Shown here: positions 17,374 through 37,487 of the stretch, one piece after another | Numbering within the stretch: the first letter of the stretch is position 1 | Layout of the letters: the number at the start of each line of letters is the position of its first letter | From: a virus | IMG/VR virus record: IMGVR_UViG_3300045988_102159 | Location: 64,001-128,000 of that record | Direction: 5' to 3' (one strand) | DNA: 64,000 bases | Translations under genes and position numbers: made by a program | The notes under the pieces: generated by a model | What the model was told of the DNA's origin: nothing | The model's database searches: none | The model's input: the letters and a program-made list of their open reading frames with translations, nothing else

Positions 17374-17739
17374 CTTGTGTCTTAAACTCGGTCGTTAATC
17401 GAGTCCATATATAAATCCTATATGCTTCTCGTTTCCAAGAAGAAGAGACTATATTTTCTATAAAAATAGAACATTCTTTCGGATAGACTTCTATCCTATC
17501 AGAGCCAATCCTGATAGTCGTTGAACCTTTTACTAAATAGCAAAGTGGCTGCGGATTATCCAATTTTTATATCTTTTTACTATACCTAAGACATTACTCT
17601 TCGCCAATATTATATCACTATAATATTTTAGTAATATAAAACTCTAAGGATTTTCCCGCAATTTAATATTTTTCTTATAATTTAAATTATAAGCCCAATA
17701 TTTTCACTTATATATTTTAAGCAACAAGTAAAATCTTTT
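17374..17739 (-). mobile_element. Group I intron in tape measure gene (~366 nt, no ORF of note)
   Basis: Minus strand carries AAUUGCGGGAAA (rc 17653-17663), CCGCAGCC, GUUCAACGACUA (rc 17515-17526) and AAUAUAGUCUC. A G precedes exon 2 (GAACAAAUC). The 5' junction was chosen after GCCCCU. A P1 helix AAGCCC/GGGCUU is visible, but its register leaves +/-2 nt of doubt. Confidence 0.8.
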
Positions 17740-18708
17740 AGGGGCTTCTCGCGTAACGGATTCAATTGTCGCAATCTGGGCGTTTAATTGGTCTGTAGAA
17801 ACTCCAAGCGTAGCTGCCGCTGATGCAGCTTTCTGGGATGCTTCTGCCAACTCTCCAACATCCGCAGCAGAAATATTTGCTACGTTAGCCCAAGAGTCTA
17901 GTGCAGCATTAAGTTTATCAATATTATTATCAAGACCATAAGCATTCATGTATGCTGTGATTTGGTCCGACGTTGTAGCAGTGTCTTGTTGAGAGGCATT
18001 AGCTAATTTAGTTGACATCTCCGCAAGCTGCTGAGATTTGTTTAGGTCAAAACCTTGCTGGCCGAAGATAAGGGTACTATTCGTCATAGCAACAGTTGTA
18101 GAGCCAAGAGCCTTTGCAGCTTCATTAGCCTGCTTAGCATACTGAACCATCGAGTCACGTGAATAGTCAGTAACAAGCATAATTTGTGTCAGCGAATCAT
18201 CAAGGTCTTTTGCATATTCAACAGATTGACGAATAGAATCAGTAACGCCGTTAAAGGCGCTTGACATAATACCCCAACGGACTGTGTTGCCCATTGTGTT
18301 AAATAATTTATCTACCATTGAGCTGGTACTTTTGATACCAGTATCAATTTTACCCAATTGAGCAAGAACGTCTGTAAAGGCAATTTTACCAGTAGACTCT
18401 GCCATAGAAAATGAATTTTGCAGATTACGTAATGAAAGTCCACTCTCATTTAGCTGGCTAGTCAACTTTGTCATATCGAGCATTCCAATTTTAGTGTTAA
18501 AGCTCGAATTTAATGCTTTCTGAAATTTTTGAATATTGTTGATAGCCGCAGAAGCTTGCGTATTATCAATAATATCCCGAGACTGCATTTCCTTTAGCTG
18601 AACAGAAACTTTATTAAGCTCAGTCTGTAATTGAGTCAAACCAGAACGGTCTAATGTAGTTCGTAGATTATACTCAATAGTATTTGAATATTTACTAATG
18701 GTAATCAC
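17740..18708 (-). CDS. Tape measure protein, exon 1 (323 codons, GTG start)
   Basis: The ORF 17704-18708 makes sense up to ...IATIESVTREAP and then runs into intron sequence (KRFYLLLKIYK*). Coiled-coil N-terminus and TMP core motifs are present. The start is GTG 18708, preceded by a 13-codon uORF that holds the strong RBS. Confidence 0.75.
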
Positions 18709-18780
18709 CTACCTTATATTTATCTGTACGATTCATAATCGTACCTCCTTTTATATCTTTATTAACGTTAATATAGGCAT

Positions 18781-18815
18781 AAAAAAAAGAGCCTACTTTA
18801 TATAAAAGTAGGCTC
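18781..18815 (-). terminator. Intrinsic terminator/attenuator upstream of tape measure
   Basis: Stem GAGCCTACTTT/AAAGTAGGCTC followed by 8 T on the minus strand. Confidence 0.7.
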
Positions 18816-18837
18816 ATAATGATTATTGAATTTTGTA

Positions 18838-19488
18838 CTAAAGCTCGAACAGAGGACCTTCCTCTTGTTCGCTATCTTCTTTAACCTCTTTATTTTCTGT
18901 TGGTACGGCAGAAAGATAATCAGTAGCAGCTTTAATTGCATCATTGACTTGTTCAGGAGTTGCCATAGCCTTAACTTTAACTTTCTCCTTTAATTTACTT
19001 TCATCCTTTGGTGTATTATTCATACCCCACTTGTCAGCAATTTCAAGAACTGTCTTAGCATCACTTTCACTAAAAGCATCTTTAAAACGATTTACAGTAG
19101 ACTCTACAATATCGCCACTAAAAGTTTGAAATGTAGAGAAAATACCACGAGCAGATTGTAGATATTTAATATAATCATCAAGCCATACGCTACCAATACG
19201 ACCAAGAGCATCCATATCTACCGCAAAGTTTTTATTCATATCTTCGATAGTGCCATCAGCCAGAAGAGCATCCCAAGCATCTAAAATATTATTTGAAACC
19301 ATGCGGCCAACCTCTTCCTTACGGTCAGGATATAGAATAATCGCCGCATACGCATATAGCGCACGTTCAAAAACAAACTGATTGACAAAGCCATTATCCT
19401 CGGCAGACTGTGCCGCAAAATGGATAATGTCATACATGTCTTGAGAGGTTAGCTTTTTAGCCGTCTCTGTTTCAAAAAGAATTGCCAT
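18838..19488 (-). CDS. Possible tail assembly chaperone (216 aa)
   Basis: AAGGAG RBS and an acidic C-terminus. Sits immediately upstream of the TMP. Assignment by position only; no slippery site identified. Confidence 0.35.
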   Translation of the reverse strand: MAILFETETAKKLTSQDMYDIIHFAAQSAEDNGFVNQFVFERALYAYAAIILYPDRKEEVGRMVSNNILDAWDALLADGTIEDMNKNFAVDMDALGRIGSVWLDDYIKYLQSARGIFSTFQTFSGDIVESTVNRFKDAFSESDAKTVLEIADKWGMNNTPKDESKLKEKVKVKAMATPEQVNDAIKAATDYLSAVPTENKEVKEDSEQEEGPLFEL

Positions 19489-19552
19489 AAAATCTCCTTT
19501 TATCTCTATACCTATATGGTTGTATTATACCATACTTTTAAAACAATGTCAA

Positions 19553-21079
19553 CTAAGATTTAAAAATATCTGGCGTAAATAAATGGCCCATATTAAGTGT
19601 GATACTAATCTTAGTATTATTCAATACCTTGTAGGCAAGTTTATTACGATTTAACGCCATGCGGAAAACGTTATCTCCTTTCTGTGACGGCATAACTTTA
19701 CTTCTTAAAGTACCTAAGTCAAAACCTTCAACAAGATAATATTTGTTGCCGCCATACTTCAAAATAGTATCTGAATTATCGTAAATCTTTCTAAGAATAT
19801 CATAAATTGAAAATATCTTATTATTTACAATAAGTAAAGTTGAATAATCTCCTTTGATACCACTGCCAGCAATAGCATCCACAAGGCTTAAAGCGCCAGC
19901 TGCCTGTCTGATATTGTACCAATCCATAGCATCAACTGTAGTACCAAGAGCACCGACAAGACTATATCCATATTGACCAGCACCGGGCACAAAAGCATTT
20001 AATTTTTTTGCCAACTGCTGATATGTCATACTTCTGGCAACAAATCCTTCAACACCAAGAGCACGAGAACCTGGGCCACTGCCTTGAAATGGCGCACTTT
20101 CACGTAATTTGACATTGCCGCCAAATTCAAGTATTATACCATCTTTATTCCAATAAATATGAACGTCTTCCTTGGACTCTTTACCTTCAAGAGTATCAGT
20201 TATCTGTTGTGCTGTCCAACTTGAATAAAATTTACCATCTGCGGCAGATACAATCTGCTTTATCTTTTCGTCATTTTCCATAATAAGCTGTTGACCTTCA
20301 TTTGCGGCAACATTAATTGCATGTGCTTCTGCCATTTCGTGAACTGTGCCGCCAATAGAGTTGAAAGCAGCAGCGATAGAATCCACAGCAGATTGAAAAC
20401 TATTCTGAATATCCGCAACACCGCCATTGCCAAGAGAAGCAAGAATATCTAAGTTTTCACGTACCTTCTCCATTGCTAAAACCATCTTAGTTTCAGACTC
20501 TTTGACCATTCCCGCACTAATACTTGCGTCTGTTGGAATACCTTGTAAATCTGATGGTACATTTCCATTTGTGTAATAAGCATCTACTAAGCGTGCGGCA
20601 ACTAAAAATTCATAGTTATATGCAAGCGTCCAAATAATATTATTAACAGCTTCATTGACAGCTGTAGTAATGCTCGATACGTGCTCTAAACAGTCCTGCA
20701 CAGATGCATTAAACGCGGAACCAGCATTTGCCAGACTGACACCATCGACAAAAATATCGCCAGATGTACTATATGACTTAGCAATACCTTTGCTGTCAAA
20801 GTTCGCAATATTTTGCATTGCCTTATCAATATTTTGACCTATTACGCCGCCATTTGAAATCCAGTTATCCATCATAGATTTAATCTGTCTACCAGTATAT
20901 TTTTTGCCACTGGCCGCATTCACCTGATTAAATCTCTGAGTAAATGTACTTACTTGGCGTTTCATAATACGGTACATCGTGTCATTATCAATATCGGCTT
21001 GCCCTCTGGCAATAGTATAAGCAAGATACTCTTTACCGCCATTGTATGCTTGGACAGCACGCCAATTGAAATTGCTCAT
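19553..21079 (-). CDS. Tail-module protein (508 aa), function unknown
   Basis: AGGAGG RBS. Lies between the major tail gene and the chaperone-like gene. Confidence 0.6.
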   Translation of the reverse strand: MSNFNWRAVQAYNGGKEYLAYTIARGQADIDNDTMYRIMKRQVSTFTQRFNQVNAASGKKYTGRQIKSMMDNWISNGGVIGQNIDKAMQNIANFDSKGIAKSYSTSGDIFVDGVSLANAGSAFNASVQDCLEHVSSITTAVNEAVNNIIWTLAYNYEFLVAARLVDAYYTNGNVPSDLQGIPTDASISAGMVKESETKMVLAMEKVRENLDILASLGNGGVADIQNSFQSAVDSIAAAFNSIGGTVHEMAEAHAINVAANEGQQLIMENDEKIKQIVSAADGKFYSSWTAQQITDTLEGKESKEDVHIYWNKDGIILEFGGNVKLRESAPFQGSGPGSRALGVEGFVARSMTYQQLAKKLNAFVPGAGQYGYSLVGALGTTVDAMDWYNIRQAAGALSLVDAIAGSGIKGDYSTLLIVNNKIFSIYDILRKIYDNSDTILKYGGNKYYLVEGFDLGTLRSKVMPSQKGDNVFRMALNRNKLAYKVLNNTKISITLNMGHLFTPDIFKS

Positions 21080-21138
21080 ATTACCTCCTAAATAACATTA
21101 GTATATATTGCAATAGCAATACATATTATTGCTATTTA

Positions 21139-21175
21139 AAAAGAAAAAGGGTGTCCCAGTTAAGGAACACCCTTT
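21139..21175 (-). terminator. Intrinsic terminator after major tail gene
   Basis: Stem AAAGGGTGTCCC/GGAACACCCTTT followed by a T-run on the minus strand. Confidence 0.7.
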
Positions 21176-21318
21176 AGCTTATTTAGCTACAGACCTCTTT
21201 AGCTTAGAAACACTGGGAGTAGTCTCAGCTCCTGAAGTCTTAGTAGTCGAATCAACTGCGTTAGCAGTTACGTCTGAATGTTGTTCATCAGCCGCAGATT
21301 CAGTTGACGTTGCGGCCT

Positions 21319-21524
21319 TTATTCCCCCGCTGCTTCTGAGAAGACAGACTTAGAATACCAACTATCTACATCGGAATCCTTTGTGCGGCCATCGTGACCA
21401 AGGACATCCTTATTCTTGTAGTTGTGGGTCGTATCAGTCTTATCAACAACCTGTAGCGTAGCCATAACCTTCTTCTTCTTGTTGAACTTGGTGTAGGCAG
21501 GCATACAGTCAATAGTGAATGTAA
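21319..21524 (-). CDS. Major tail (tube-like) protein, exon 5
   Basis: Encodes (F)TFTIDCMPAYTKFNKKKKVMATLQVV...SEAAGE*. The frame is restored when it is joined to exon 4 after ...GDPST. An omega-G (21525) directly precedes it. Confidence 0.75.
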
Positions 21525-21781
21525 CATTATGTTATCTTATAGTTTCCTATAAGTTCAGACTATATCTTCACCTCTAATAATAGAGGGTTTTCCACTTCGC
21601 TTTGTTATAAAGCTACTCCATAAAGGATAGTCGTTGAACGTACTCGTTCGCTGCTGATTACCAGTTAAGGCTTCCAGCAATTCAAAAAAGATTTTACAAC
21701 GCATCGCTGCGCAGGTACCCGAACATCACTTTAAAAGACTACTAACAGACCAATTAAAGACTAATAGCAGACATTCTAGAC
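21525..21781 (-). mobile_element. Group I intron D of major tail gene (257 nt)
   Basis: P1 GUACCU/GGGUAC with U.G at the splice site. Also GAAUUGCUGGAAGCC, GUUCAACGACUA (rc 21628-21639), AGAUAUAGUCU (rc 21557-21568) and a terminal G. Confidence 0.85.
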
Positions 21782-22431
21782 AGGTACTTGGATCGCCATT
21801 GTTCGCCATAGAGAACGTAAAGTTACTCTGGATTTTACCACGAGGAATGACGAATTCGGCAGGAAGGTCTACGCCAGTCTCTTCATCACGGAAAAGTGTA
21901 GACGCTTCAATGTAATAGTAACCAGCGAAGTTCTCAGCATCAATCTGCATCTCATAGGCTTCATCGTAATGAACCTCATAGCAGTCAATGCGGACGGTAT
22001 CGCCAGCCTTTACAGCGGCATCTTGCTTGCTATCGCCGGGTTCATCGGCGGCAAGCTGGAAAGCGATAGTTTTACCTTCGGCTTGAATCTCACCATGATC
22101 GCCAAGGGTGGCGGCAGCTAGGGTCTTGCCATCATTGATAACAAAGACCTGCTTGTCGGTGACAGCAGAAAGGTAATTAGCTTGAGCACCAGCACTATCA
22201 AGAGTAACAGGATAGATAGGAGCTTCTTTTGTAACGATGATAGTCGCGCCATTGCGGTCTTCATCGGTTAACTTGGCGATAATCTTATCGCCAGAGGTTT
22301 CGGCAACCATATCATATGTAGCATGGACATAGATAGGAGTCTTATTTTCACCAGTTTTCTTACCGTGTACTAGACCAGCACCAGACAGCATAGCGAAACT
22401 GGTAGGACTCATTAGAGAGTCTTCAAGAGTG
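21782..22431 (-). CDS. Major tail (tube-like) protein, exon 4
   Basis: Corresponds to track ORF 21726-22412 plus in-frame upstream codons (..TLEDSL-MSPTSF...). The sense ends at ANNGDPST, and the ORF tail CLECLLLVFNW... is intron. An alternative 5' boundary is 22439. Confidence 0.75.
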
Positions 22432-22658
22432 CTTTTTAAACATATATACTTTCATATATAAACAGACTATATCTTATCTTTCGATTTTCTCACTTCCTTG
22501 CTTACAGCAAGTACACCTATACAGGTTAGTCGTTGAACCATTTTATTTGGCTGCGGATTGTCTAATTCTTATGGATTATTACTATAAAATAGTACCATAA
22601 AACTCTAAAGAGGTTCCCGCAATTCAAGAAATTTAATGACCCCCACATTTGTTAATTA
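22432..22658 (-). mobile_element. Group I intron C of major tail gene (~227 nt)
   Basis: P1 UGACCCU/GGGGUCA with U.G. Also AAUUGCGGGAAC, CCGCAGCC, GUUCAACGACUA (rc 22527-22538) and AGAUAUAGUCU (rc 22464-22475). Confidence 0.85.
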
Positions 22659-22679
22659 AGGGTCAGAGTCTTTTCACCA
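22659..22679 (-). CDS. Major tail protein, micro-exon 3 (~19-21 nt, GEKTLT)
   Basis: GGUGAAAAGACUCUGACCCU lies between the 3' end of intron B and the P1 of intron C. The frame from GGU through exons 4 and 5 is exactly 292 codons. The 5' boundary is uncertain (22676-22679). Confidence 0.6.
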
Positions 22680-22911
22680 CATTTGTATTATCTGTATCTT
22701 TATATATACATACAGCTTAGACTATATCTTTATTCTTTTAGAATATCTTGCACTTCGGATTGTAGCATCCTACACCTTAAAGGTTAGTCGTTGAACTTTA
22801 CTAAAAGTCTTAGCTGCGGATTCCCCTCGAAAGGGCTTTCCCGCAATTCACAAAATTTATTTCATTCTTAATGGTATACAAGCATTAAGCGGCCTGAGCA
22901 GTGAAGAAACT
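22680..22911 (-). mobile_element. Group I intron B of major tail gene (~230 nt, boundaries +/-6 nt)
   Basis: Contains AAUUGCGGGAAAGCC, CCGCAGCU, GUUCAACGACUA (rc 22785-22796) and AGAUAUAGUCU (rc 22709-22720). I could not draw a convincing P1 with a U.G pair, so both junctions are approximate. Confidence 0.75.
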
Positions 22912-22935
22912 TTCCCAGGCGATTAGACGAGGATT
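22912..22935 (-). CDS. Major tail protein, micro-exon 2 (~24-30 nt, NPRLIAWE..)
   Basis: AAUCCUCGUCUAAUCGCCUGGGAA starts directly after the omega-G of intron A (22936). It continues exon 1 in frame (..YAQGGKG-NPRLIAWE). The 3' boundary is uncertain (22906-22912). Confidence 0.6.
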
Positions 22936-23676
22936 CATAATATTCTAAATAGGTCGTTACTCTATTTATTGTTTACACAACTATATATTGCTATATAGAT
23001 TAGACTATATCTTATGCTAGATTACTAACATTTTCCTATTTCAAGCTACTTAGCTTTACTTCCTTGCGGAATAGTCGTTGAACTTTATTGAGTTATCCAC
23101 CTATAACCTCCTGTAGTATGACGTTTACCGCTACAAACAAGGCTAATTTTGCTAACACTACAACCTGTCTGACGATGCGCTTCTGACATACTTTTAAATT
23201 CACCAATAACATTTCCATTTAAATCAAGTTGGTAAACAGGAATCTCTGGATAACTTCCACTATTTACTTTATGCTGAACATAGCTATCATTCTTTTGACG
23301 AATAACCCAACGTAAATTTGTCAAATTATTGTCATCTCGAATTTCGTTTATATGATGACATTCCTCTCCTTCTAATGGAGGGCGAAGAAAAGTCTCAAGA
23401 ACCAAACGATGAATACGCCAATGTTTATAAGTGTTATTCTCTGTATTATATAACTTTACATACTGGTATCCATCTTTGTCATATTGAGGTTTCAACATAC
23501 GTTTAGTTGAAACAGTTCTAATTTCACCATGTTCATTTACCTCATAATAAGGAAAATCTTTTACAACTTTCCACATAAATAGCGCTCCAATCTTAGATGC
23601 TGATTGTCTTATAATACTTATATTATATCATAAGAGTTTCCAGCAGTCAAGGAAATTTTACAAGAGCAATCTATTT
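22936..23676 (-). mobile_element. Group I intron A of major tail gene (741 nt) carrying an HNH homing endonuclease ORF
   Basis: P1 AAGGGU/GCUCUU with U.G. Also UUGACUGCUGGAAAC, CAAUCAGCAUC, then the ORF, then GUUCAACGACUA (rc 23072-23083), AGAUAUAGUCU (rc 23002-23012) and a terminal G at 22936. Confidence 0.85.
23085..23576 (-). CDS. Intron-encoded HNH homing endonuclease (163 aa)
   Basis: N-terminal NUMOD4-like W..V.DFPYYEV...G.I motif, an H-N-H core (HRLVLETF...CHHINEIRDDNNLTNLRW) and a C-terminal HTH-like tail. Located inside the ribozyme core between the P6 and P7 elements. Confidence 0.8.
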   Translation of the reverse strand: MWKVVKDFPYYEVNEHGEIRTVSTKRMLKPQYDKDGYQYVKLYNTENNTYKHWRIHRLVLETFLRPPLEGEECHHINEIRDDNNLTNLRWVIRQKNDSYVQHKVNSGSYPEIPVYQLDLNGNVIGEFKSMSEAHRQTGCSVSKISLVCSGKRHTTGGYRWITQ

Positions 23677-23850
23677 ACCCTTGCCTCCTTGTGCATAAAC
23701 AGTAGTAGCAGCACCCTCAAGGCTAGAAGTCTTGGCAGTATCAATGTAAAGCATAGGCTGACCAGCATCGAAGTGCTGACCACCAAGGTCTACGGATGTT
23801 AGTGGCTTGAAGACCACATCACAAATCTCGCGCACACCAAAACGATTCAT
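23677..23850 (-). CDS. Major tail (tube-like) protein, exon 1 (58 codons)
   Basis: ATG 23850 with AAGGAG RBS, encoding MNRFGVREICDVVFKPL...TTVYAQGGKG. Too short for the ORF track because intron A brings an in-frame stop right after GGU. Confidence 0.75.
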
Positions 23851-23958
23851 AGATTTCTCCTTACGTTTAGGAATTTGTATACAGTTTCCTTAGTCATAGA
23901 AACATAACGCGCTAATTTCTATGTCTATTATATAAACGCGGCAAAACCACGATTATAC

Positions 23959-24729: not shown

Positions 24730-24741
24730 GCCGCACCAGCT

Positions 24742-25353: not shown

Positions 25354-25367
25354 GTAACCTCCAATCC

Positions 25368-26821: not shown

Positions 26822-26822
26822 T

Positions 26823-27332: not shown

Positions 27333-27358
27333 TGGGCAAACCTCCTACTTATTTCATA

Positions 27359-27928: not shown

Positions 27929-27952
27929 ATTATATTTTCTCCTTTTAAATCT

Positions 27953-27982
27953 AAAAAAAGAAGGGACGCAGAGCGCCCCTTC
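27953..27982 (-). terminator. Intrinsic terminator after capsid/beta-helix genes
   Basis: Stem GAAGGGACGC/GCGCCCCTTC followed by 7 T on the minus strand. Confidence 0.7.
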
Positions 27983-27992
27983 CAATAATTTA

Positions 27993-28895: not shown

Positions 28896-28906
28896 TGGAG
28901 TTGGGT

Positions 28907-29953
28907 TTAGCGAGTTGCTTTTTTTAGTGCTGTGTTCTGATAAGAGCAGATAGAAGGATTAGAGAATACAGCGACACCAAACTTCTTGTAAGTTTGGAGG
29001 TCGGTTGACCAATCGTCATTATCAGAAACTGTACGAACGGCAGTCTGACCCTCGAAGACAATCTTGACAGGCTTTTCGCCAACAGAAGCAAAGATGTAAG
29101 CCTGAGAGGGGTCAACAACCTTTTCGGCATTAGTTTCATCAACCATAGATTGCTGGAGGATGATTACAGGGTGACCCTTATAATCCGCGAAGAAGCCCTT
29201 GCGGAAAAGCTCTTCTTTCATGGAATCAGAAGCCCAGTCAGCAGAAGCAGGCTTCATAGTAGAAGCAAACTCACGAGTGCAGTAGATGGTAGAAGTACCA
29301 TTGCCGTAGGCGTCGGAAATAGCAAGCAGTTCGTCCATCTTAGTCTCGTCAAAGCCAGCGCCGACATACTTGTTAGCAGTAGGTAGCTGTTCGACAGTCT
29401 GTGTAAGAGCCTTTAGAATTTCAGCATAGATGTATTCATCGACACCTTCAAGCATGATATTAGTGAAGTCAGCGAATGAATAACGACCATCAAGGAATTC
29501 CTCAAAGCCAATGCGGATAGCATAGCCAATAGCGCTAGTAGCAACTTCGAGTTCCTTACCATCAAGCATCATTGTCTCATAACGACCAGCAAGGCCGACA
29601 CGAGTTACGAAAGCCTTGGCACGCTTACGAGCAGCTTCAGTAATGCGGAGCTTGAAGACGGCCTTATCGCCCTGAGCGATTGTCTGAACGTCAGCGAACT
29701 GTTCAAATTGCTGCATAACCTTGACGGGAAGAATCTCGTCAATGGTATTCTCAATTAGTTCGTAGACAGCGACCTCGTTGCGACGGAAGAGACGATAATC
29801 GCCAGCAAGTAGATTGAACTGTTCACGAAGAGTACGGTTAACGGTATCAACGTCAAATGATTCCTCGTTGCCATTTACTGAAAAAGTAAGGGGAGCATTC
29901 TTGGTAGCGGCACGAGCGAGCTTTTTAAGTTCGTCAAATTTCATTAGTTCCAT
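28907..29953 (-). CDS. Major capsid protein (348 aa)
   Basis: AAGGAG RBS. Size and position after the scaffold and the small head protein fit a capsid protein. Sequence feel of an HK97-fold capsid protein, not verified. Confidence 0.7.
   Translation of the reverse strand: MELMKFDELKKLARAATKNAPLTFSVNGNEESFDVDTVNRTLREQFNLLAGDYRLFRRNEVAVYELIENTIDEILPVKVMQQFEQFADVQTIAQGDKAVFKLRITEAARKRAKAFVTRVGLAGRYETMMLDGKELEVATSAIGYAIRIGFEEFLDGRYSFADFTNIMLEGVDEYIYAEILKALTQTVEQLPTANKYVGAGFDETKMDELLAISDAYGNGTSTIYCTREFASTMKPASADWASDSMKEELFRKGFFADYKGHPVIILQQSMVDETNAEKVVDPSQAYIFASVGEKPVKIVFEGQTAVRTVSDNDDWSTDLQTYKKFGVAVFSNPSICSYQNTALKKATR
28919..28925 (-). promoter_or_regulatory. A_AAA_AAA slippery heptamer (candidate -1 programmed frameshift site)
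   Basis: Seven A on the coding strand in X_XXY_YYZ register (CUA AAA AAA GCA), 4 codons before the capsid stop. The -1 frame runs stop-free into the beta-helix ORF. Confidence 0.5.
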
Positions 29954-29972
29954 TATCTATCTTACTCCTTTC

Positions 29973-30497
29973 TTATTCAGCGATGACTTGTAGTTTAAGG
30001 CCGGGCTGACCATCAGGCATGGTGGTGAGCTTAGCAACCTTGACGGCTAGACCTTCGCCCTTAGCGCCTTTCTCAAGAACACCATTAGTGCCGGGGACGA
30101 GAACGTCACCTAGGTCATAATCGTCAGCCTTGACGTTATTTGTGGTGAAAATATCACCAGCATACATGCGGAAAACACGAGGTGTCATAACGCCGTCATA
30201 GAAGTCAGACTTCTTCATGGCGTAGTCACGGTGCATCTGCTTACGCTCGTCATAGAGCTTTTCTTCATTGAAGACCATCATCCAAGGGCCTTCACCAGTG
30301 AAGTTAATTTTGCCAGCAGCATAATCGTACTTAACGAAAGTGCCCTGTTCAAGCATTGTAATAGAATCATCAGCGGGGAGCTGACCATAAACGCCACCAC
30401 TGCGGGGAGCAGAGAGGTGGTTAGGCTCGACAACTGAATAATTGTCGTGGCCTGTAAGCTGAACCTTAGTGTCAGCGCGGTCTACATGTAGAGCCAT
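29973..30497 (-). CDS. Small head protein (174 aa), possible decoration/auxiliary capsid protein
   Basis: AGGAGG RBS. Lies between the scaffold and capsid genes. Confidence 0.45.
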   Translation of the reverse strand: MALHVDRADTKVQLTGHDNYSVVEPNHLSAPRSGGVYGQLPADDSITMLEQGTFVKYDYAAGKINFTGEGPWMMVFNEEKLYDERKQMHRDYAMKKSDFYDGVMTPRVFRMYAGDIFTTNNVKADDYDLGDVLVPGTNGVLEKGAKGEGLAVKVAKLTTMPDGQPGLKLQVIAE

Positions 30498-30510
30498 TTA
30501 ATCCTCCTAT

Positions 30511-31854
30511 TTAATAGTTTTGTGCTTCGCGGAGAGCAGATAGCATTGGGTCAGCATCTTCCGCAATAGTTTCATCGTCTAAAGAGAATGTCGTAAGAGG
30601 TGTAGAATCTACCTCTTCCTCTTCATCAAAGTTAACATTCTTCTGAACGTATAGTAAAGCGAGCTTGCTTTCAATCTCGCCAAGAGTGAATTTATCTTTA
30701 TCAGCGATAATTTCCGCTTTGTCTTCGTCAGAGAGCATATGATATTTAGCAATCATAGCATCCTTGTCGGCATCAATGCGCTCTGCCTTAAACTTACGAA
30801 GCTCTTCTGCTTCTGCTTCGAGAGCCGTAAACTTATCTGTAAGCTCTTTTAGCTGTTCAGAAAGTTCAGAAACCTGATTCTCAAGCTCATGCTTTTTCTC
30901 TGGCTTCTTTTCATCTTCCTTATCATCAGAATCATTAGAATCGTCATCTGATTCATCTTCATTATCTTCGGAATCAGAGTCTTCTTTATCTTCTTTCTTC
31001 TCTTCTTCCTTAGCAAAAGTTTCTTCGGCGGAGTCTTCGCTAGATTCAACGTCTTCATTTGTCTCAACGTTTTCAGCAAACTCTTCTGCCGCAGGAGTTT
31101 CTTCCTCAGCTGTGGCAGTAGGCTCTACCTCAACGCTTTCAACGTTTTCTTTCGGCATAGACCCTCCTTTTGTCAACGCACTTTTTAATTCATTCATCAT
31201 AGCAAATAAAGTATGCGAAAATTCTTTATTATAAGAGAAATGTTCGCTTACTTCTGGGCTAGTGACAGATGCGCCCTCAAAACAAGGTTCTACATCATCG
31301 CCCAAGATACAAAGTTTTGTAAAGATTGCATCATTTATAATAAAAAACTCAATATCGTTGCTATCGGTAGTCCAATGTCCGTCAACGTCATCAATTTCCA
31401 TTGACTGTCCTTGGCCTTGGTTGATACATTTATCCAATTCAGGATACTGCCCAGTCCATAGATAACCAGTAGTCATCATGTATTCACGTGTAGTGGTTTC
31501 ACCGAATTCATTTGTATCATCGAATTTCTGAAACCATACTTCTGCATCTGGAGCAACGAAACCGTAAGGAACGGTCTTGCAAGAGAATTTTACTTCCCCA
31601 TCTTCAATGTGAAGAACTTCACCGTGGTCACCAAAGTCTTCTTTGTTCTCATTATAGGCAGCTACAATTGGCGTAGCAGGTAATGAGTTCGCCATCTGGA
31701 TGGCCGTGTTCTTATCAATGAAAGAACCGTTGCGGTTCTTACCAAGATACATGACCTTAATCTCACATTTAGAAATACCGGGGTTGATAGCATCTGGTGC
31801 TAGATTAATGAATTCTGGACTATCAATTGTAGCCACAGACCTATTTCTTAGCAT
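30511..31854 (-). CDS. Scaffolding protein, possibly with N-terminal prohead-protease-like domain (447 aa)
   Basis: The C-terminal half is extremely acidic and coiled (EEEKKEDKEDSDSEDNEDESDDD...). Sits between portal and capsid. Confidence 0.5.
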   Translation of the reverse strand: MLRNRSVATIDSPEFINLAPDAINPGISKCEIKVMYLGKNRNGSFIDKNTAIQMANSLPATPIVAAYNENKEDFGDHGEVLHIEDGEVKFSCKTVPYGFVAPDAEVWFQKFDDTNEFGETTTREYMMTTGYLWTGQYPELDKCINQGQGQSMEIDDVDGHWTTDSNDIEFFIINDAIFTKLCILGDDVEPCFEGASVTSPEVSEHFSYNKEFSHTLFAMMNELKSALTKGGSMPKENVESVEVEPTATAEEETPAAEEFAENVETNEDVESSEDSAEETFAKEEEKKEDKEDSDSEDNEDESDDDSNDSDDKEDEKKPEKKHELENQVSELSEQLKELTDKFTALEAEAEELRKFKAERIDADKDAMIAKYHMLSDEDKAEIIADKDKFTLGEIESKLALLYVQKNVNFDEEEEVDSTPLTTFSLDDETIAEDADPMLSALREAQNY

Positions 31855-31860
31855 TTAATT

Positions 31861-33462
31861 CTATCCTTCCGCTTCTATATTAGCGATTGTTTTATCAGAC
31901 TTCTCGGAATCTGGCTTCTCAGGGCGACCACCCTTATTGCCCGAAGATGGAGTCTGCTGTTGTTTTGTCTTCGCGGTAGTATCTCCATTGCCGCCATTGC
32001 TCATAGTAGAAGATAGAGCTGGAGCAACGAAAACCTCATTCAAAGACATAATATCATTCTCAAAATATGCGGTCATAAGTACCGCACTTTGAGATTGACC
32101 AAGAGCAACTTGCGGCAATAGCTTGGAGAATCCAAGAGAAGTCATATCTTTATACTGCTTAGATAGGTCTTTATAATTATAAACGGTCGTAGGCAGAATA
32201 TCGACATGATAATAAAGTCGCTTACTGTTCTTGTTAAATGGTGCCAACAGACGTTCCGCAAATGTCTGAAATTGTAAAATAAGGTCAGACATAGTAGCTT
32301 CATCATTTGCAATAGATTTCTCCAATGCAAGATTACCATCCGCATTAAAAAGGTTTTGTCCAGTACCAGCTTCGTTGTACACAGAACGTTCAACCTTATT
32401 GAGCTGGTCAACAGAAGAGACATTACCTTTGTCAGAAAGGTCTGCCACATCAACATCCGCGAACGTTGTCAACACGTCAACTCCAACAGCGTCACCAAGC
32501 ATGGCAACCGCATTAGTGTGGAGCTGTTGCGCTTCTTGGACATCAAAGATTAAATCGCCGTTCTTATCAATTGGCATCTTTTGGATAATAATCTTTAAAA
32601 TCTGTTGAAGCATCTTTTTCTTATCTAAATCCTGCGCGTCTTCCAAATCCAACAGCTTAGGAATAATACTCATGAACAGTGGCGCGTCACCGCCCGTGAT
32701 ATTAAATTTCACTGTTGTCGATGGGTCAAGTAAAAACCAGCCGTTGGTATCGCCAGCATAGTCAATGGGTAACCTCCCATCCTTATAAGCAAGGTAAGCC
32801 TTCTGGACTTCCTTCGGCCACAGTTTTAGAACTCTTAAACGATACGCAGTATCGGAAAAAGCATCATCGAAATATTTCATATTAAATTCAACCGCAGGAT
32901 TACCGTTAAGTTGATAACGGCTGCGGCAATAGGAAATAGGTAATTCTTGAATAAAACAAGCGTCCTTTTGCGGCACAATCACGCCATAATAGGCACCTGT
33001 GCGCACAACTTTTAACGCAATCTCGCCAAACACTTTTTTGAGATTGCAATTTTCAAGATAGCGTGTTGATTTATACCAACCTTCAACTACCTTTTTAGAT
33101 TTACCATCTTGTTTTAATTTTTCATCATATATCATTGGCGTAATAAACCAATCATATTTGAATAGGAAAGCCATATAACGACACAGGCGGCTATAGATAC
33201 CGCTTGTTTTGAAGAAATAATTAGAAATCTTACGCTGTTCATTCATATTATTCTGCTCAAGAGCCTTTAGTACATCTTCTTTAGTGTACTTCTTGCGGCG
33301 AGAATATTTGTCTGTAATAACTTGACCAATATCAAGAACAACGTCATTGGAGAGAGTTTTGTTCCCTACCTTAATTTTATTAAATGCTAAAGAACCAGAT
33401 TGAGTATTACCATTTGCAATGATGCGGCAATCTCGCTCATTTTTATTTTTAACGGTAGCCAA
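31861..33462 (-). CDS. Portal protein (533 aa)
   Basis: TTG start with AGGAGG RBS. Size and position next to the terminase fit a portal. C-terminal Gly/Lys-rich tail. Confidence 0.65.
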   Translation of the reverse strand: MATVKNKNERDCRIIANGNTQSGSLAFNKIKVGNKTLSNDVVLDIGQVITDKYSRRKKYTKEDVLKALEQNNMNEQRKISNYFFKTSGIYSRLCRYMAFLFKYDWFITPMIYDEKLKQDGKSKKVVEGWYKSTRYLENCNLKKVFGEIALKVVRTGAYYGVIVPQKDACFIQELPISYCRSRYQLNGNPAVEFNMKYFDDAFSDTAYRLRVLKLWPKEVQKAYLAYKDGRLPIDYAGDTNGWFLLDPSTTVKFNITGGDAPLFMSIIPKLLDLEDAQDLDKKKMLQQILKIIIQKMPIDKNGDLIFDVQEAQQLHTNAVAMLGDAVGVDVLTTFADVDVADLSDKGNVSSVDQLNKVERSVYNEAGTGQNLFNADGNLALEKSIANDEATMSDLILQFQTFAERLLAPFNKNSKRLYYHVDILPTTVYNYKDLSKQYKDMTSLGFSKLLPQVALGQSQSAVLMTAYFENDIMSLNEVFVAPALSSTMSNGGNGDTTAKTKQQQTPSSGNKGGRPEKPDSEKSDKTIANIEAEG

Positions 33463-33472
33463 AGCTCACCTC

Positions 33473-33829
33473 CTAATATCCTGCTGCTTTCATGATATAA
33501 TCATAGCTTAATCTTCCTTCATCATAATAAGGAATAGTGACTAATTTCAGATTATGTTCCAAGCAAAATTTTCTTTTTAACGTATCGTTATATTTTTGAT
33601 ATTTGAGGGCACGAGCACCACCATAACGACTGACAGGTACATAATGCTGTTCGCCTTGTGCTTCTATTAAAAAATCAATATTGCCGCAATCGTCAAAAAT
33701 ACAAAAATCAAATCTAAGATTTCTGCCAGACTTACCGACAAGTCCCTCAAATTCATACTCTTCCTCAAAAGGTAAACCTGCGTCTTTCAATATGTTATAT
33801 ATTTTTATTTCTAATAAAGAATCACGCAT
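33473..33829 (-). CDS. PD-(D/E)XK-fold nuclease (Vsr/DUF559-like, 118 aa), possible free-standing homing endonuclease
   Basis: Pattern ...RFDFCIF...IDFLIEAQGEQH.... Inserted between TerL and portal. Confidence 0.45.
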   Translation of the reverse strand: MRDSLLEIKIYNILKDAGLPFEEEYEFEGLVGKSGRNLRFDFCIFDDCGNIDFLIEAQGEQHYVPVSRYGGARALKYQKYNDTLKRKFCLEHNLKLVTIPYYDEGRLSYDYIMKAAGY

Positions 33830-33921
33830 AATTTGTCCTTTCGGAATTTCTTACTATACCATATAAAATTACACTCTATAAAATAATACAGTTTTGCCCA
33901 ACTTTTATAAAAATTTTTACA

Positions 33922-33956
33922 TAAAAATAGGGTACGACCGCATGGGCCGCACCCTA
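33922..33956 (-). terminator. Intrinsic terminator directly after terL
   Basis: Stem TAGGGTACGACC/GGGCCGCACCCTA (imperfect) followed by 5 T on the minus strand. Confidence 0.6.
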
Positions 33957-35378
33957 CTAATGCTTCGTAAAGAACATGAATCCACTTAAATCTCTGGAAT
34001 TGCGGCGATTTCGCCTATCCTCTTGGCGTTTACACCAATAGAGTCCATAGATTAGAGCAGACACTTTATCCTTTAGAATCTTTCTATTGGATTGTTTCAG
34101 AATGATATTTGCACCTTCATTATCTTGTACGAGATTTGCCATCTGTGATTTCAAAATATCAGTGGCAACATATGGCCGCAAATAATCTTGACGCTGTAAC
34201 GGAGTCATTTTCTTTCCTTGCGCTTGCTGCAATAGCTTATTCTTAGCAGTATTAGAGTCAATTAAGAACTTTAACTTGCCGTTGCGTAATTGTGTTTGTG
34301 TATAAGAATATAACTCTGTATTCATTGGAGCATTTGCTTTCATCATCCAAATTGCATTCTTGATTGTATTCTCATTCTCGAACGATTTATAGTTCTTGCG
34401 GTCTTGCTCGTTAGGAATATCGTCTAGATTGATAATACCCATGTTAGGAAGAAGCTCGTCTGTTTCTGGGTCGTTCTGGTCTGTAATTAAGTAATCAAGA
34501 AGTCCAATGCCTAATCCGTTCGCGTCTAAAACGATGGCTTCGCACTTGAACGCATTAAAGAGCTGCTTAATCTTAATTGCTTGATATTCAAAGTGAGATT
34601 CAGATAAAGTGAAGATGTTCACTATCTTCTTATCGTTGACACCTGTTGTTCTTGCAGGAGAAGATTCAATGATTACAATTTCTGTAGGGCAGTTAAGACG
34701 GCCTACGTCTACGCCCATAACGTAAAATGTATCTTTATTTTGTCCCTTGTCGTATCCATTCTTGGCGAGATTGATAATCCTGTGTTTGTCAAACTTATTC
34801 ATATCGAAGAAAGCACCGTCTAAAGTTCCGCTCCAGACTGAGCCGTATTCCCGTTCAAAGCCAATCTCGTCCATCGAATTGCCTGTCTCTTGGGCTTGAA
34901 TATAGTTCGCTGGTTGTAACCCTTCGACTACAGGTACTCTCCAGTCGCCTCCTAGAATGAAAGCATCGTATCCATTGCTAGATACCATGCGACACAGCGC
35001 GTCAATTAGTTTGTCGTAAGCGTAAGTACCTTTGAATCCGGCGCTTGTGACGTAGATGTCGTTCTGGTTCAGTGTCTCGTCTGGGTCTACCTTACCATTG
35101 ACTTTTCTAGAAATTACAAGCATAGGCGCAATGATTTCTTCGTACTTTTGCTGGTCTGTAATGGTCGCTACCTCTTCTGTAAGTACTGCTTGAGCACGGA
35201 AACCACGAGAACCAGAAGTCATGCTTACGTTCTTTATCGTACTTCCGTTGCGGAAACTGTAAGTTACTTCGTCTTTCGATTGACTTGTCTTTGCCAAAGT
35301 TCCTCGTGTGTCCCAAACAATTTCTCTAGCGAGTCCGGGGATTAACTTACATATTTCCTGCATCTTTGATTGCAGAAT
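33957..35378 (-). CDS. terL: Terminase large subunit, exon 2 (473 codons)
   Basis: RNaseH-like nuclease pattern (VMGVDVGR..., IVLDANGLGIG...). The ORF's leading Met is probably intron/exon junction sequence. The 5' boundary is proposed at 35378. Confidence 0.8.
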   Translation of the reverse strand: MLQSKMQEICKLIPGLAREIVWDTRGTLAKTSQSKDEVTYSFRNGSTIKNVSMTSGSRGFRAQAVLTEEVATITDQQKYEEIIAPMLVISRKVNGKVDPDETLNQNDIYVTSAGFKGTYAYDKLIDALCRMVSSNGYDAFILGGDWRVPVVEGLQPANYIQAQETGNSMDEIGFEREYGSVWSGTLDGAFFDMNKFDKHRIINLAKNGYDKGQNKDTFYVMGVDVGRLNCPTEIVIIESSPARTTGVNDKKIVNIFTLSESHFEYQAIKIKQLFNAFKCEAIVLDANGLGIGLLDYLITDQNDPETDELLPNMGIINLDDIPNEQDRKNYKSFENENTIKNAIWMMKANAPMNTELYSYTQTQLRNGKLKFLIDSNTAKNKLLQQAQGKKMTPLQRQDYLRPYVATDILKSQMANLVQDNEGANIILKQSNRKILKDKVSALIYGLYWCKRQEDRRNRRNSRDLSGFMFFTKH

Positions 35379-35584
35379 CATAGCTGATTCATAAAATTAT
35401 AGACTATATCATTTTCTCCGAAGAGAAACTTTCCGCTTCGCCGCATAAGCAGCTACTCCCTTTTAGGATAGTCGTTGAACTTATAAATTAGATGCTGATT
35501 GCCAATAGATGGTGTCCCAGCAGTTCAAAAAGTTAGTTTTTCAAGGTATCGCTACCAAGCAGGACAATCAATTCGTCCTTTTGC
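35379..35584 (-). mobile_element. Group I intron in terL (~206 nt, boundaries +/-15 nt)
   Basis: Contains GAACUGCUGGGACACC, CAAUCAGCAUC, GUUCAACGACUA (rc 35469-35480) and GAUAUAGUCU (rc 35401-35410). Proposed P1 is GCAGAU/GU(C)CUGC with U.G, and omega-G is at 35379. Confidence 0.8.
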
Positions 35585-37424: not shown

Positions 37425-37487
37425 AAGTCTCCTTTCTATACAAGAAACCCACTCCATCCAAGAGAAGGAAGAAGTGGGTCAGTAATA

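What the first reader, a model, noticed from the sequence alone, without database searches (positions are those of the whole stretch)
17374..35584. Six introns form one family with two P4 subtypes, and only one carries a homing endonuclease
All six introns share an identical P7 strand (GUUCAACGACUA) and a near-identical P7' strand. They fall into two P4 classes. AAUUGCGGGAA occurs in the TMP intron and tail introns B and C. (A/U)CUGCUGGRA occurs in tail introns A and D and the TerL intron. Only intron A (741 nt) has an ORF (HNH); the others are 206-366 nt. This suggests intragenomic spread of a minimal ribozyme into three essential late genes. The spread may have been mobilised in trans by the single intron-encoded HNH or by the free-standing HNH at 46468. 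Alternatively the other introns are decayed and have lost their endonuclease genes. All lie in the late operon, so splicing could act as a global late-gene checkpoint.
Basis: inference. Interest (0 to 1): 0.7.

Follow-up and report, generated by a model that had tools for sequence, protein, structure and literature searches.

The report
Six independent self-splicing introns in phage
[quoted passage not shown] They are unrelated mobile hitch-hikers that come and go among sister phages, not copies of one element that spread inside this genome.

Summary
The six introns are real. All are on the minus strand, in the probable major tail protein gene (four introns), the tape-measure gene and the large terminase gene. 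Rfam's group I model hits all six. Removing them restores reading frames colinear with intron-free alleles in sister phages. All six show the phage-type IA2 layout (P7.1 and P7.2 hairpins). Only intron A has an ORF, an I-HmuI-like NUMOD4-HNH-NUMOD1 endonuclease.

The "one family" reading fails. The shared P7/P7' strands and both P4 variants are subgroup-wide consensus, found in more than 120 unrelated viral contigs. The six are not each other's nearest relatives. Sister phages carry 0 to 7 or more introns at 16 or more different sites in the same three genes, with HNH, LAGLIDADG or Zn-ribbon/Vsr-like endonucleases. Introns are more conserved between phages than the flanking exons (B: 95% against 73-89%).

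So these are independent, horizontally moving introns caught at different stages of endonuclease gain and loss. This is a known kind.

Points worth follow-up:
- The micro-exons are only 23 and 15 nt long.
- Two inferred 5' splice sites lack the canonical U: A in intron B and C in the terminase intron.

The parts
17374..17739 (-). Group I intron in the tape-measure protein (TMP) gene, 366 nt, no ORF. It has an extended P5 and three 3' hairpins (P9 region).
   Evidence: RF00028 41.2 bits, E 4e-7. The intron-free allele L155 joins window 17741 to 17373. The same intron sits at the same site in L177 (97.8%), L169 (98.8%, plus a LAGLIDADG ORF) and L019. U at -1 and G at the 3' end.
9544..17373 (-). 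TMP exon 2
   Evidence: 2591-aa ORF. It is continuous with exon 1 after intron removal.
17740..18708 (-). TMP exon 1
   Evidence: PF10145 PhageMin_Tail, E 1.8e-14, truncated at the intron.
21319..21524 (-). Tail-gene exon 5 (includes the stop codon)
   Evidence: 95.6% identical to the intron-free allele L003.
21525..21781 (-). Intron D, 257 nt, no ORF
   Evidence: RF00028 76.1 bits. Junction ACCU|UUACAU gives PSTFTFTI, as in L003. P1 is GUACCU/GGGUAC with a U.G pair. No relative has an intron at exactly this site.
21782..22431 (-). Tail-gene exon 4
   Evidence: tblastn match to Enterococcus phage VRE9_4 virion structural protein. 90% identical to L003.
22432..22664 (-). Intron C, 233 nt, no ORF (the alternative 3' end at 22441 would give 224 nt)
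   Evidence: RF00028 61 bits. L013 has an intron at the same site whose only in-frame 3' site is AAAAG|CAC. The internal guide sequence (IGS) GUGGGGGUC is complementary to the ligated GACUCU|CAC.
22665..22679 (-). Tail-gene exon 3, a 15-nt micro-exon (UGGUGAAAAGACUCU)
   Evidence: Matches L003 nt 199-212. Seven nt pair in P10 of intron B and six nt pair in P1 of intron C.
22680..22912 (-). Intron B, 233 nt, no ORF. The inferred 5' splice site follows an A.
   Evidence: RF00028 80.1 bits. The junction GGGA|...AUG|UGGUGA is shared with L006, L023 and L026, and the same 5' junction with L032. Intron-free L018 reads GGGATGGTGA. P1 (GCNUGGG/CUCANGC) covaries in three forms.
22913..22935 (-). Tail-gene exon 2, a 23-nt micro-exon
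   Evidence: 100% identical to L003 nt 175-197.
22936..23676 (-). Intron A, 741 nt, with an endonuclease ORF in the P6 loop
   Evidence: RF00028 41 bits on the 3' half. Junction GGU|AAAUAG...UAUG|AAUCC. P1 is CAAGGGU/GCUCUUG with a U.G pair and a contiguous P10.
23085..23576 (-). Intron-encoded HNH homing endonuclease gene (163 aa)
   Evidence: NUMOD4 1e-8, HNH_3 5e-7, NUMOD1 7e-9, I-HmuI NUMOD-like 3e-4. A GGAG motif lies 8 nt upstream of the ATG, and the stop codon lies 1 nt before P7.
23677..23850 (-). Tail-gene exon 1
   Evidence: 53% identical to the VRE9_4 N-terminus. 88.6% nt identity to L003.
33957..35389 (-). Large terminase (TerL) exon 2
   Evidence: 36-43% aa identity to YonF-type terminases. 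91-94% nt identity to the IMG/VR sister phages.
35390..35574 (-). TerL intron, 185 nt, no ORF and no P9 hairpin. The inferred 5' splice site follows a C.
   Evidence: RF00028 47.2 bits, E 7e-9. All 22 sister TerL loci join 35577 to 35387 without an intron. Only synonymous differences occur in the flanking codons. The IGS UUGAUUGUCCU pairs over 11 contiguous bp with the ligated AGGAC|AAUCAG.
35575..36049 (-). TerL exon 1 (start codon uncertain; possibly near 35925)
46468..46974 (+). Free-standing HNH endonuclease gene. It is not part of any intron and is only a candidate trans-acting enzyme.
   Evidence: HNH_3 9e-7. Its closest match among the relatives' intron endonucleases is the site-B HNH of L006/L026, 44% over about 100 aa.

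Best explanation
The window holds six separate IA2-type group I self-splicing introns. They interrupt three late genes of a 142.6-kb SPbeta/EF1-like siphovirus from a human gut metagenome: the PHROG-2729 virion structural protein (probably the major tail protein, four introns), the tape-measure protein (one) and the large terminase (one).

Each intron is expected to fold on the pre-mRNA. It pairs its internal guide sequence (IGS) with the end of the upstream exon (P1) and the start of the downstream exon (P10). It then excises itself in two transesterifications and restores the ORF. An in-frame stop codon follows every 5' splice site within 2-19 codons.

The six are not paralogues made inside this genome. 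Each belongs to its own site-associated lineage circulating in a population of related phages. Spread is by endonuclease-triggered gene conversion during co-infection, with endonuclease genes being gained and lost.

Intron A still carries an intact I-HmuI-like HNH enzyme. The five ORF-less introns are endonuclease-free versions. B and C lie only 23 and 38 exon nucleotides from A's insertion site. They would probably be copied together with A in one co-conversion tract (inferred).

Shown here: the introns, their architecture, their junctions by comparison with intron-free alleles, presence/absence polymorphism, and intron-versus-exon discordance. Inferred: actual splicing, endonuclease activity and the route of mobilisation.
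For: Core and frame:
- Rfam group I hits for all six.
- Removing the introns gives uninterrupted proteins colinear with homologues and with intron-free alleles at 88-96% nt identity.

Architecture:
- P4-P5, P7.1, P7.2 and P8 hairpins are present in all six, and P9 in five. Helix sequences differ while the pairing is kept.
- The IGS is complementary to the ligated exons. z is -2.6 to -3.5 for five introns and -1.3 for the TMP intron.

Not a single genome-internal family:
- Pairwise P7-to-P7' distance among the six is 0.34-0.50. Their mutual ranks are 5th to 135th of 203.
- The best BLAST partners are introns at the same site in other phages, or introns in unrelated contigs.
- The P7...P7' motif is found in more than 120 unrelated IMG/VR contigs.
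- Both P4 variants are common elsewhere: AATTGCTGG in 104 of 166 and AATTGCGGG in 20 of 166 unrelated cores.

Mobility:
- 18 of 32 sister tail-gene loci are intron-free.
- None of 22 sister TerL loci has the window's intron, yet they carry introns at five other TerL sites.
- I count 16 or more sites in total, and loads of 0 to at least 7 per phage.
- Intron B is 95.3% identical between the window and L023, while the flanking exons are 78-89% and the upstream gene 73% identical.
- The TMP intron is 97.8-98.8% identical against 88-96% for its exons.

Endonuclease gain and loss:
- The same TMP intron occurs with and without a LAGLIDADG gene (L169 against the window and L177).
- Site B occurs with HNH (L006, L026) or without (window, L023).
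- The TMP site is occupied in L159 by an unrelated intron with a Zn-ribbon/DUF2726-like nuclease.
Against: - No RNA data: splicing is inferred for all six.
- Three Rfam hits fall below the family's gathering score.
- Two inferred 5' splice sites lack the canonical U(-1).G pair: B has A and TerL has C. Either the junctions are slightly different or these introns splice unusually or poorly.
- P1 of the TMP intron is weak (z -1.3).
- A, D and the TerL intron have no close copy in IMG/VR or the JGI metagenomes. For these three, horizontal origin is inferred only from their absence in sister phages.
- B, C and D are moderately closer to each other than to most others (ranks 5-19). An old diversification among neighbouring sites of this gene cannot be excluded.
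Confidence: 0.85

Rival explanations
1. One reading: one minimal ribozyme multiplied inside this genome into three late genes, mobilised in trans by the single intron-encoded HNH or by the free-standing HNH.
For: - The P7 strand is identical in all six.
- They share the same IA2 architecture.
- The A and TerL insertion sites are partly alike (AAGGGU|AAUC against AAGGAC|AAUC).
- A and TerL alone carry ACTGCTGG...CAATCAGCATCTAA, a combination absent from IMG/VR.
- The free-standing HNH is 44% identical to site-B intron HNHs of relatives.
Against: - P7/P7' and both P4 forms are subgroup consensus.
- Outside the universal core, the helices P1, P2, P5, P6, P7.1, P7.2, P8 and P9 all differ.
- The mutual similarity ranks are poor.
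- A and TerL differ at 7 of 30 positions in the P4/P4' core, while each has matches with only 3-5 differences in unrelated contigs. They give no BLAST hit to each other.
- Each of the TMP intron, B and C has a nearer relative in other phages.
- The six exon flanks share no common target.
Confidence: 0.04
2. The ORF-less introns are mobilised by free-standing endonucleases encoded elsewhere (collaborative or trans homing), rather than by riding on intron A's co-conversion tract.
For: - Collaborative homing is documented in T4-like phages (review PMC3984707).
- The window has a free-standing HNH at 46468-46974.
- It also has a free-standing nuclease-domain ORF at 33473-33829, just downstream of TerL. 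That ORF matches PHROG 9084 'homing endonuclease' and is 33-35% identical to the nuclease domain of intron endonucleases at site C and the TMP site in relatives.
- The TMP and TerL introns have no endonuclease gene within their host gene.
Against: - Identities of 33-44% say nothing about target specificity.
- The 118-aa ORF lacks the Zn-ribbon DNA-binding part seen in the intron-encoded versions.
- No cleavage data exist.
Confidence: 0.25
3. The introns serve the phage as a splicing-dependent checkpoint that gates late gene expression.
For: All six lie in one co-oriented late block, from TerL through the tail genes to TMP. Three essential genes depend on splicing.
Against: - Sister phages with 88-96% identical genes have none of these introns. 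Six contigs have none in any of the three genes. Others have different introns at different sites.
- A conserved regulatory device would not be this dispensable and variable.
Confidence: 0.04
4. One or more of the six (especially the TerL intron with C at -1, and B with A at -1) are splicing-defective or are spliced at other positions than inferred.
For: - U(-1).G is treated as universally conserved (PMC11835236).
- The TerL intron is unique to this genome, lacks P9 and scores below the Rfam gathering threshold.
Against: - TerL: only synonymous changes occur in the codons on both sides of the insertion, and there is an 11-bp contiguous IGS match to the ligated exons.
- Engineered Anabaena introns tolerate a Watson-Crick pyrimidine at this position (PMC12355055).
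- B: the same junction is kept in at least four diverged phages (five counting L032's 5' junction), with P1 covariation. In L006 it is the only in-frame solution with a 3'-terminal G that preserves the conserved WDGEKTL peptide; other in-frame solutions add or change residues.
- TerL and the tail protein are essential, and the contig is a 142.6-kb assembled consensus.
Confidence: 0.15

Closest known systems
Staphylococcus phage Twort orf142 (tail tube protein gene) with three group I introns
   Same: Several IA2-type group I introns are packed into one tail structural gene of a Firmicute phage, leaving short internal exons. Exon skipping was seen there (cited in PMC11878797).
   Different: - Here there are four introns in the gene, with micro-exons of 23 and 15 nt.
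- The host gene is an unrelated protein family (PHROG 2729) in a siphovirus.
- Splicing is not demonstrated here.
Bacillus phage SPO1/SP82 DNA polymerase intron encoding I-HmuI, and related HNH-bearing phage introns
   Same: Intron A has the same design: an IA2-like ribozyme with a NUMOD4-HNH-NUMOD endonuclease ORF in a peripheral loop. Pfam's I-HmuI NUMOD-like domain gives a weak hit.
   Different: - The host gene is different.
- The protein is at most 40% identical to any HNH in cultured phages.
- Nicking or cleavage activity is untested.
Group I introns in terminase and polymerase genes of Bastillevirinae (NAR 2025, PMC11878797)
   Same: - TerL genes are split by up to three group I introns.
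- HNH, LAGLIDADG and VSR-like endonucleases occur.
- The IA2 set is heterogeneous.
- Presence is variable between related phages.
   Different: - That survey found introns only in DNA-metabolism and packaging genes.
- Here the tail protein and tape-measure genes are also invaded.
- The population shows 16 or more sites in three genes.
T-even phage introns (td, nrdB, sunY) and collaborative homing
   Same: These are polymorphic, horizontally transferred 'old' introns. ORF-less introns there are mobilised by endonucleases encoded elsewhere. Flanking exon markers are co-converted (review PMC3984707).
   Different: Different hosts and genes. No genetic crosses are available here.

Membership tests
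Group I intron (Rfam RF00028) | Conserved catalytic core (P3-P8, P7 G-binding helix) recognised by the covariance model | tested here: met
   Six hits. B scores 80.1, D 76.1 and C 61.0 bits, above the gathering score of 50. TerL scores 47.2, TMP 41.2 and A 41.0 bits, below it, with E of 7e-9 to 5e-7.
Group I intron (Rfam RF00028) | Interrupts a gene; removal restores a reading frame colinear with uninterrupted homologues | tested here: met
   Spliced tail protein, TerL and TMP are colinear with the intron-free alleles L003, L194 and L155 and with the VRE9_4 protein.
Group I intron (Rfam RF00028) | P1 formed by an internal guide sequence, with a U.G wobble at the 5' splice site | tested here: inconclusive
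   U.G is present in A, C and D. U(-1) is present but P1 is irregular in the TMP intron. B has A(-1) opposite the conserved G. TerL has a C(-1)-G pair.
Group I intron (Rfam RF00028) | Terminal guanosine (omega G) before the 3' splice site | tested here: met
   All six inferred 3' ends are G.
Group I intron (Rfam RF00028) | Self-splicing of the transcript | not testable with these tools
   This needs an in vitro splicing assay or RNA-seq.
Subgroup IA2 (phage-type group I introns) | Extra hairpins P7.1 and P7.2 between P7 and P3' | tested here: met
   Two hairpins follow GACUA in all six. They are clear by minimum-free-energy folding for five. For B, P7.1 (ACCUU/AAGGU) and P7.2 (GGAU/AUCC) were read by eye. 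No subgroup-specific covariance model was available.
HNH homing endonuclease (I-HmuI-like) | HNH catalytic motif plus NUMOD DNA-binding modules, encoded in an intron loop | tested here: met
   HNH_3, NUMOD4 and NUMOD1 all score above the Pfam cut-offs. The ORF lies between P6 and P7.
HNH homing endonuclease (I-HmuI-like) | Cuts or nicks the intron-free allele near the insertion site | not testable with these tools
   This needs a cleavage assay on an L003-type allele.
   Mutual ranks are 5-135 of 203 and distances 0.34-0.50. BLAST partners lie in other phages. P4/P4' core strings are closer to unrelated contigs.
   The six 30-nt flanks have no common motif. Only A and TerL share AAGGnn|AATC.

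The most novel reading that the evidence does not exclude
Two of these natural group I introns splice without the supposedly universal U(-1).G wobble. The site-B lineage, kept in at least four diverged phages, would use an A opposite the conserved guide G. The 185-nt, P9-less terminase intron would use a Watson-Crick C-G pair. In addition, the 15-nt micro-exon is almost entirely consumed by guide pairings of the two flanking ribozymes (P10 of B and P1 of C), which would force an order of splicing.
Probability: 0.3. Interest if true: 0.65.

Novelty: new member of a known kind. Interest (0 to 1): 0.45.

Why it matters
It gives a clean natural example of selfish-intron population dynamics in uncultured human-gut phages. 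Three late genes have 16 or more landing sites, and sister genomes carry 0 to 7 or more introns. The same ribozyme occurs with and without an endonuclease gene, and introns move between phages whose genes are 73-89% identical.

Practically, such split genes break automated annotation of the terminase, tail and tape-measure genes that are used as phage markers.

The non-canonical 5' splice sites and the 15-nt and 23-nt micro-exons are concrete, cheap targets for splicing experiments.

Tried and rejected
- **Structural alignment.** MAFFT plus RNAalifold on the six cores recovered only P7, because the peripheral helices differ in length. I therefore built no covariance model and read the helices from segment folds instead.
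- **A special A-TerL relationship.** The shared ACTGCTGG...CAATCAGCATCTAA signature is absent from IMG/VR. I rejected the idea because their P4/P4' cores differ at 7 of 30 positions, closer matches exist in unrelated contigs, and BLAST finds no A-TerL alignment.
- **Other copies of the TerL, A and D introns** **and of the A endonuclease**. None were found. The one D-motif hit (L216) is a more distant phage with at least three introns in its own tail-gene homologue, not the same intron.
- **Near-DNA search in cultured phages**: no relative.
- **Host search in 185,000 genomes**: nothing.
- **Pfam and PDB sequence searches for the tail protein**: nothing. 'Major tail protein' therefore rests on PHROG 2729 and on gene order only.
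Rejected because they would delete seven conserved residues whose codons differ from sister alleles only at synonymous positions.
- **An early misreading of exon 3 as DTDNTNVVK**. Corrected with the intron-free allele.

Full report
**What is there**

The motif GTTCAACGACTA occurs exactly six times, always on the minus strand, against 0.22 expected by chance. Each copy lies inside a hit to Rfam's group I intron model. Three hits exceed the gathering score: B 80.1, D 76.1 and C 61.0 bits. Three fall below it with small E-values: TerL 47.2, TMP 41.2 and A 41.0 bits, E 7e-9 to 5e-7 over the whole window. Nothing else in the 64 kb resembles a group I intron, and no tRNA was found.

The window comes from a 142,586-bp scaffold of a human gut metagenome, ENA ERZ28662543, ZEEV15-1_SAMEA3665086_METAG-scaffold_46. 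Its terminase is 36-43% identical to YonF-type terminases of Geobacillus E3, Enterococcus EF1/H1-like phages and phAss-1. No cultured phage matches at the DNA level.

**Host genes and junctions**

The four-intron gene is a homologue of the Enterococcus phage VRE9_4 'virion structural protein' (PHROG 2729, E 2e-49). In VRE9_4 that gene lies a few genes upstream of the tape-measure gene. It is probably the major tail protein. Pfam and PDB sequence searches gave nothing, so this identification is by position only.

IMG/VR holds many sister phages, which supplied 32 tail-gene loci, 39 TMP loci and 22 TerL loci. Eighteen of the 32 tail-gene loci are completely intron-free. Aligning such alleles (L003, L155, L194) to the window fixes the insertions:

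| Intron | Coordinates | Length (nt) |
|---|---|---|
| A | 22936-23676 | 741 |
| B | 22680-22912 | 233 |
| C | 22432-22664 | 233 |
| D | 21525-21781 | 257 |
| TMP | 17374-17739 | 366 |
| TerL | 35390-35574 | 185 |

For C, a same-site intron in L013 and the guide-sequence match favour the 3' end at 22432 over 22441. Conceptual splicing gives uninterrupted proteins colinear with the intron-free homologues. TMP exon 1 carries a PF10145 domain cut by the intron. The internal exons of the tail gene are only 23 nt and 15 nt long. Every 5' splice site is followed by an in-frame stop within 2-19 codons (read).

**Architecture**

Folding the segments shows a P4-P5 domain, two hairpins (P7.1 and P7.2) between P7 and P3', and a P8 hairpin in all six. 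A P9 hairpin is present in five, and the TerL intron has none. Helix sequences differ from intron to intron while pairing is kept. The P7.1/P7.2 pair is the hallmark of subgroup IA2, the usual phage type.

Each intron has a 5'-proximal guide sequence complementary to its ligated exons. z-scores against shuffled exons are -2.6 to -3.5 for five introns and -1.3 for TMP.

Intron A's ORF (23085-23576) lies between P6 and P7 and has a GGAG motif 8 nt upstream of the ATG. It encodes a NUMOD4-HNH_3-NUMOD1 protein of the I-HmuI type. The other five have no credible ORF. The 67-aa TTG ORF at 17360-17563 straddles the TMP 3' junction and was not pursued. The ORF at 46468-46974 is a free-standing HNH_3 protein.

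**The shared motifs are not evidence of common origin within the genome**

The P7 and P7' strings match the Rfam consensus.

The two 'P4 subtypes' are also generic. Among cores from unrelated contigs, AATTGCTGG occurs in 104 of 166, AATTGCGGG in 20 and AACTGCTGG in 4. The classes differ by one compensated base pair (G-C versus U-A).

**Are the six each other's relatives?**

No. BLAST of each intron against all fetched loci gave the following:

| Intron | Nearest relatives |
|---|---|
| TMP | Same site in L177, L169 and L019, 98-99% identical |
| B | Same site in L023, 95%. Endonuclease-bearing site-B introns of L006 and L026, about 80% over the 3' half |
| C | L026 site C, 77% |
| D | An intron at a different site, 13 nt upstream, in L026 (84% over the 3' half) |
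| A | An unrelated contig (L079, 70%) |
| TerL | Nothing close. Best is D, at 51 bits |

In a 204-sequence alignment of the P7-to-P7' segment, the six differ from each other by 34-50% and rank 5th to 135th among each other's neighbours. B, C and D are the least distant (ranks 5-19). An old diversification among neighbouring sites of this gene remains possible.

A and TerL share ACTGCTGG...CAATCAGCATCTAA, which is absent from IMG/VR, and their insertion sites are alike (AAGGGU|AAUC against AAGGAC|AAUC). However, their P4/P4' cores differ at 7 of 30 positions, while unrelated contigs match each at 3-5 differences. I dropped the lead.

**Population picture**

Sister phages show introns at many other positions.

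- The tail gene has at least eight sites. In L003 CDS nucleotides these are 17/18, about 165, 174 (A), 197 (B), 212 (C), 855, 864 and 868 (D).
- TerL has six sites.
- The TMP gene has two sites.

Loads in these three genes range from zero (six contigs) to at least seven. Contig ..._099276 has 2+2+3, and ..._094705 has 3+2+2 or more. A more distant phage (L216) also has at least three introns in its tail-gene homologue.

The resident endonucleases are diverse: many HNH, two LAGLIDADG, and a Zn-ribbon plus DUF723/DUF2726(Vsr)-like type.

Two kinds of observation bear on endonuclease gain and loss. First, L169 has the window's TMP intron (98.8%) with an 846-nt LAGLIDADG insertion. Second, the same TMP site in L159 holds an unrelated intron with a Zn-ribbon nuclease. 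The A site in L023 likewise holds a different, ORF-less ribozyme that resembles the window's C.

Intron and host histories disagree.

- Intron B is 95.3% identical between the window and L023. Their flanking exons are 78-89% identical and the upstream gene 73%.
- L006 has genes 93-94% identical to the window but carries a B variant only 81% identical over its 3' half.
- The TMP intron is 97.8-98.8% identical where its exons are 88-96%.

This is the signature of horizontal transfer by homing.

**How the ORF-less introns persist**

This part is inference. B and C sit 23 and 38 exon nucleotides from A's insertion site, so a break made by A's HNH in an intron-free allele would probably copy all three in one co-conversion tract. 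In the sister phages, most multi-intron clusters in one gene contain at least one endonuclease gene.

The TMP and TerL introns have no endonuclease within their gene. Trans-acting candidates are the HNH at 46468 and a 118-aa nuclease-domain ORF at 33473-33829, immediately downstream of TerL. The HNH is 44% identical to site-B intron HNHs. The 118-aa ORF matches PHROG 9084 and is 33-35% identical to the nuclease domains of site-C and TMP-site endonucleases. These identities are too low to infer specificity. Collaborative homing is an established precedent (PMC3984707).

A regulatory 'checkpoint' role is unlikely, because closely related phages lack the introns altogether.

**Unexplained: non-canonical 5' splice sites**

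Comparison with intron-free alleles puts the 5' splice site of B after an A (GGGA|AAGU...AAAUG|UGGUGA).

- L006, L023 and L026 share the same junction, and L032 shares the same 5' junction.
- Intron-free L018 reads GGGATGGTGA.
- In L006, which has only this intron, it is the only in-frame solution with a 3'-terminal G that preserves the conserved WDGEKTL peptide. Other in-frame solutions add or change residues.
- P1 covaries in three forms: GCCUGGG/CUCAGGC, GCUUGGG/CUCAAGC and CGUGGG/CUCACG. The A always faces the conserved guide G.
- In the ligated-exon duplex, the A is bulged and U(+1) pairs with that G.

The TerL intron follows a C. Its guide UUGAUUGUCCU pairs over 11 contiguous bp with AGGAC|AAUCAG, and the flanking codons differ from sister alleles only synonymously.

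A database paper treats U(-1).G as completely conserved (PMC11835236). Engineered Anabaena introns tolerate a paired pyrimidine there (PMC12355055).

In sister phages, the introns at tail-gene position about 165 show U(-1).G in L020 but C(-1).A in L016, L017 and L026, an isosteric wobble swap. All of this needs cDNA evidence.

**Comparison with the known, and verdict**

Multiple IA2 introns in one tail gene are known from Twort orf142 (tail tube, three introns, exon skipping). Multi-intron terminase genes with HNH, LAGLIDADG or VSR-like endonucleases are known from Bastillevirinae (PMC11878797). I-HmuI-type intron endonucleases are classical.

The paper on the related phAss-1 group does not mention introns.

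The finding is therefore a new member of a known kind. It is notable for intron density (four introns, micro-exons of 23 and 15 nt), for invasion of a tape-measure gene, and for the rich presence/absence polymorphism. The 'intragenomic family' interpretation is not.

Noticed in passing
window 33473-33829 (-): A 118-aa ORF lies between TerL and the portal gene. It matches PHROG 9084 'homing endonuclease' (E 3e-25). It is 33-35% identical to the C-terminal nuclease domain of the Zn-ribbon endonucleases found inside site-C and TMP-site introns of sister phages. It lacks their Zn-ribbon part, so it may be a free-standing or truncated homing endonuclease.
   Followed up: partly
window 22913/22912 (intron B) and 35575/35574 (TerL intron): The inferred 5' splice sites follow A and C instead of the canonical U. 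Support comes from intron-free alleles, guide-sequence complementarity and, for B, conservation with P1 covariation in at least four other phages.
   Followed up: partly
L016:3655, L017:3108, L026:2391 versus L020:3132 (tail-gene CDS position about 165): Homologous introns at one site have either U(-1) paired with G (L020, L021) or C(-1) facing A (L016, L017, L026). This is a natural U.G to C.A wobble exchange at the cleavage site.
   Followed up: partly
window 22665-22679 and 22913-22935 (-): Micro-exons of 15 and 23 nt lie between group I introns. Thirteen of the 15 nt of exon 3 are engaged in P10 of intron B or P1 of intron C. This suggests ordered splicing or a risk of exon skipping.
   Followed up: partly
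L003-L034, L155-L216 (IMG/VR sister phages): The phage lineage is an intron hot spot. It has 16 or more insertion sites in three genes and 0 to 7 or more introns per genome. Four sites lie within about 50 nt of tail-gene coding sequence (TVYAQGGKGNPRLIAWDGEKTL). The same site can be occupied by unrelated introns.
   Followed up: partly
window 35390-35574 (-): At 185 nt, with no P9 hairpin inside the intron, the TerL intron is very small. A hairpin GAAUCA-GCUA-UGAUUC is formed by the 3'-terminal G (35390) plus the first 15 nt of exon 2 (35389-35375), and Rfam aligned it as P9.
   Followed up: no
window 35910-37457 (-) and 37488-38576 (-): The 515-aa ORF upstream of TerL overlaps TerL exon 1 by about 140 nt. 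Its N-terminus gives weak Zn-finger, HNH and Lar-like PHROG hits. The next gene is sigma-factor-like (PHROG 5767) with a weak endonuclease-VII-like C-terminal match.
   Followed up: no
window 48654-48665 (+): A seventh, one-mismatch copy of the P7 string (GTTCACCGACTA) lies on the other strand. There is no Rfam hit there, so it is probably chance.
   Followed up: no
window 17360-17563 (-): A 67-aa TTG-initiated ORF starts inside the TMP intron and runs 14 nt into exon 2. I did not search it against any family library and treated it as spurious.
   Followed up: no
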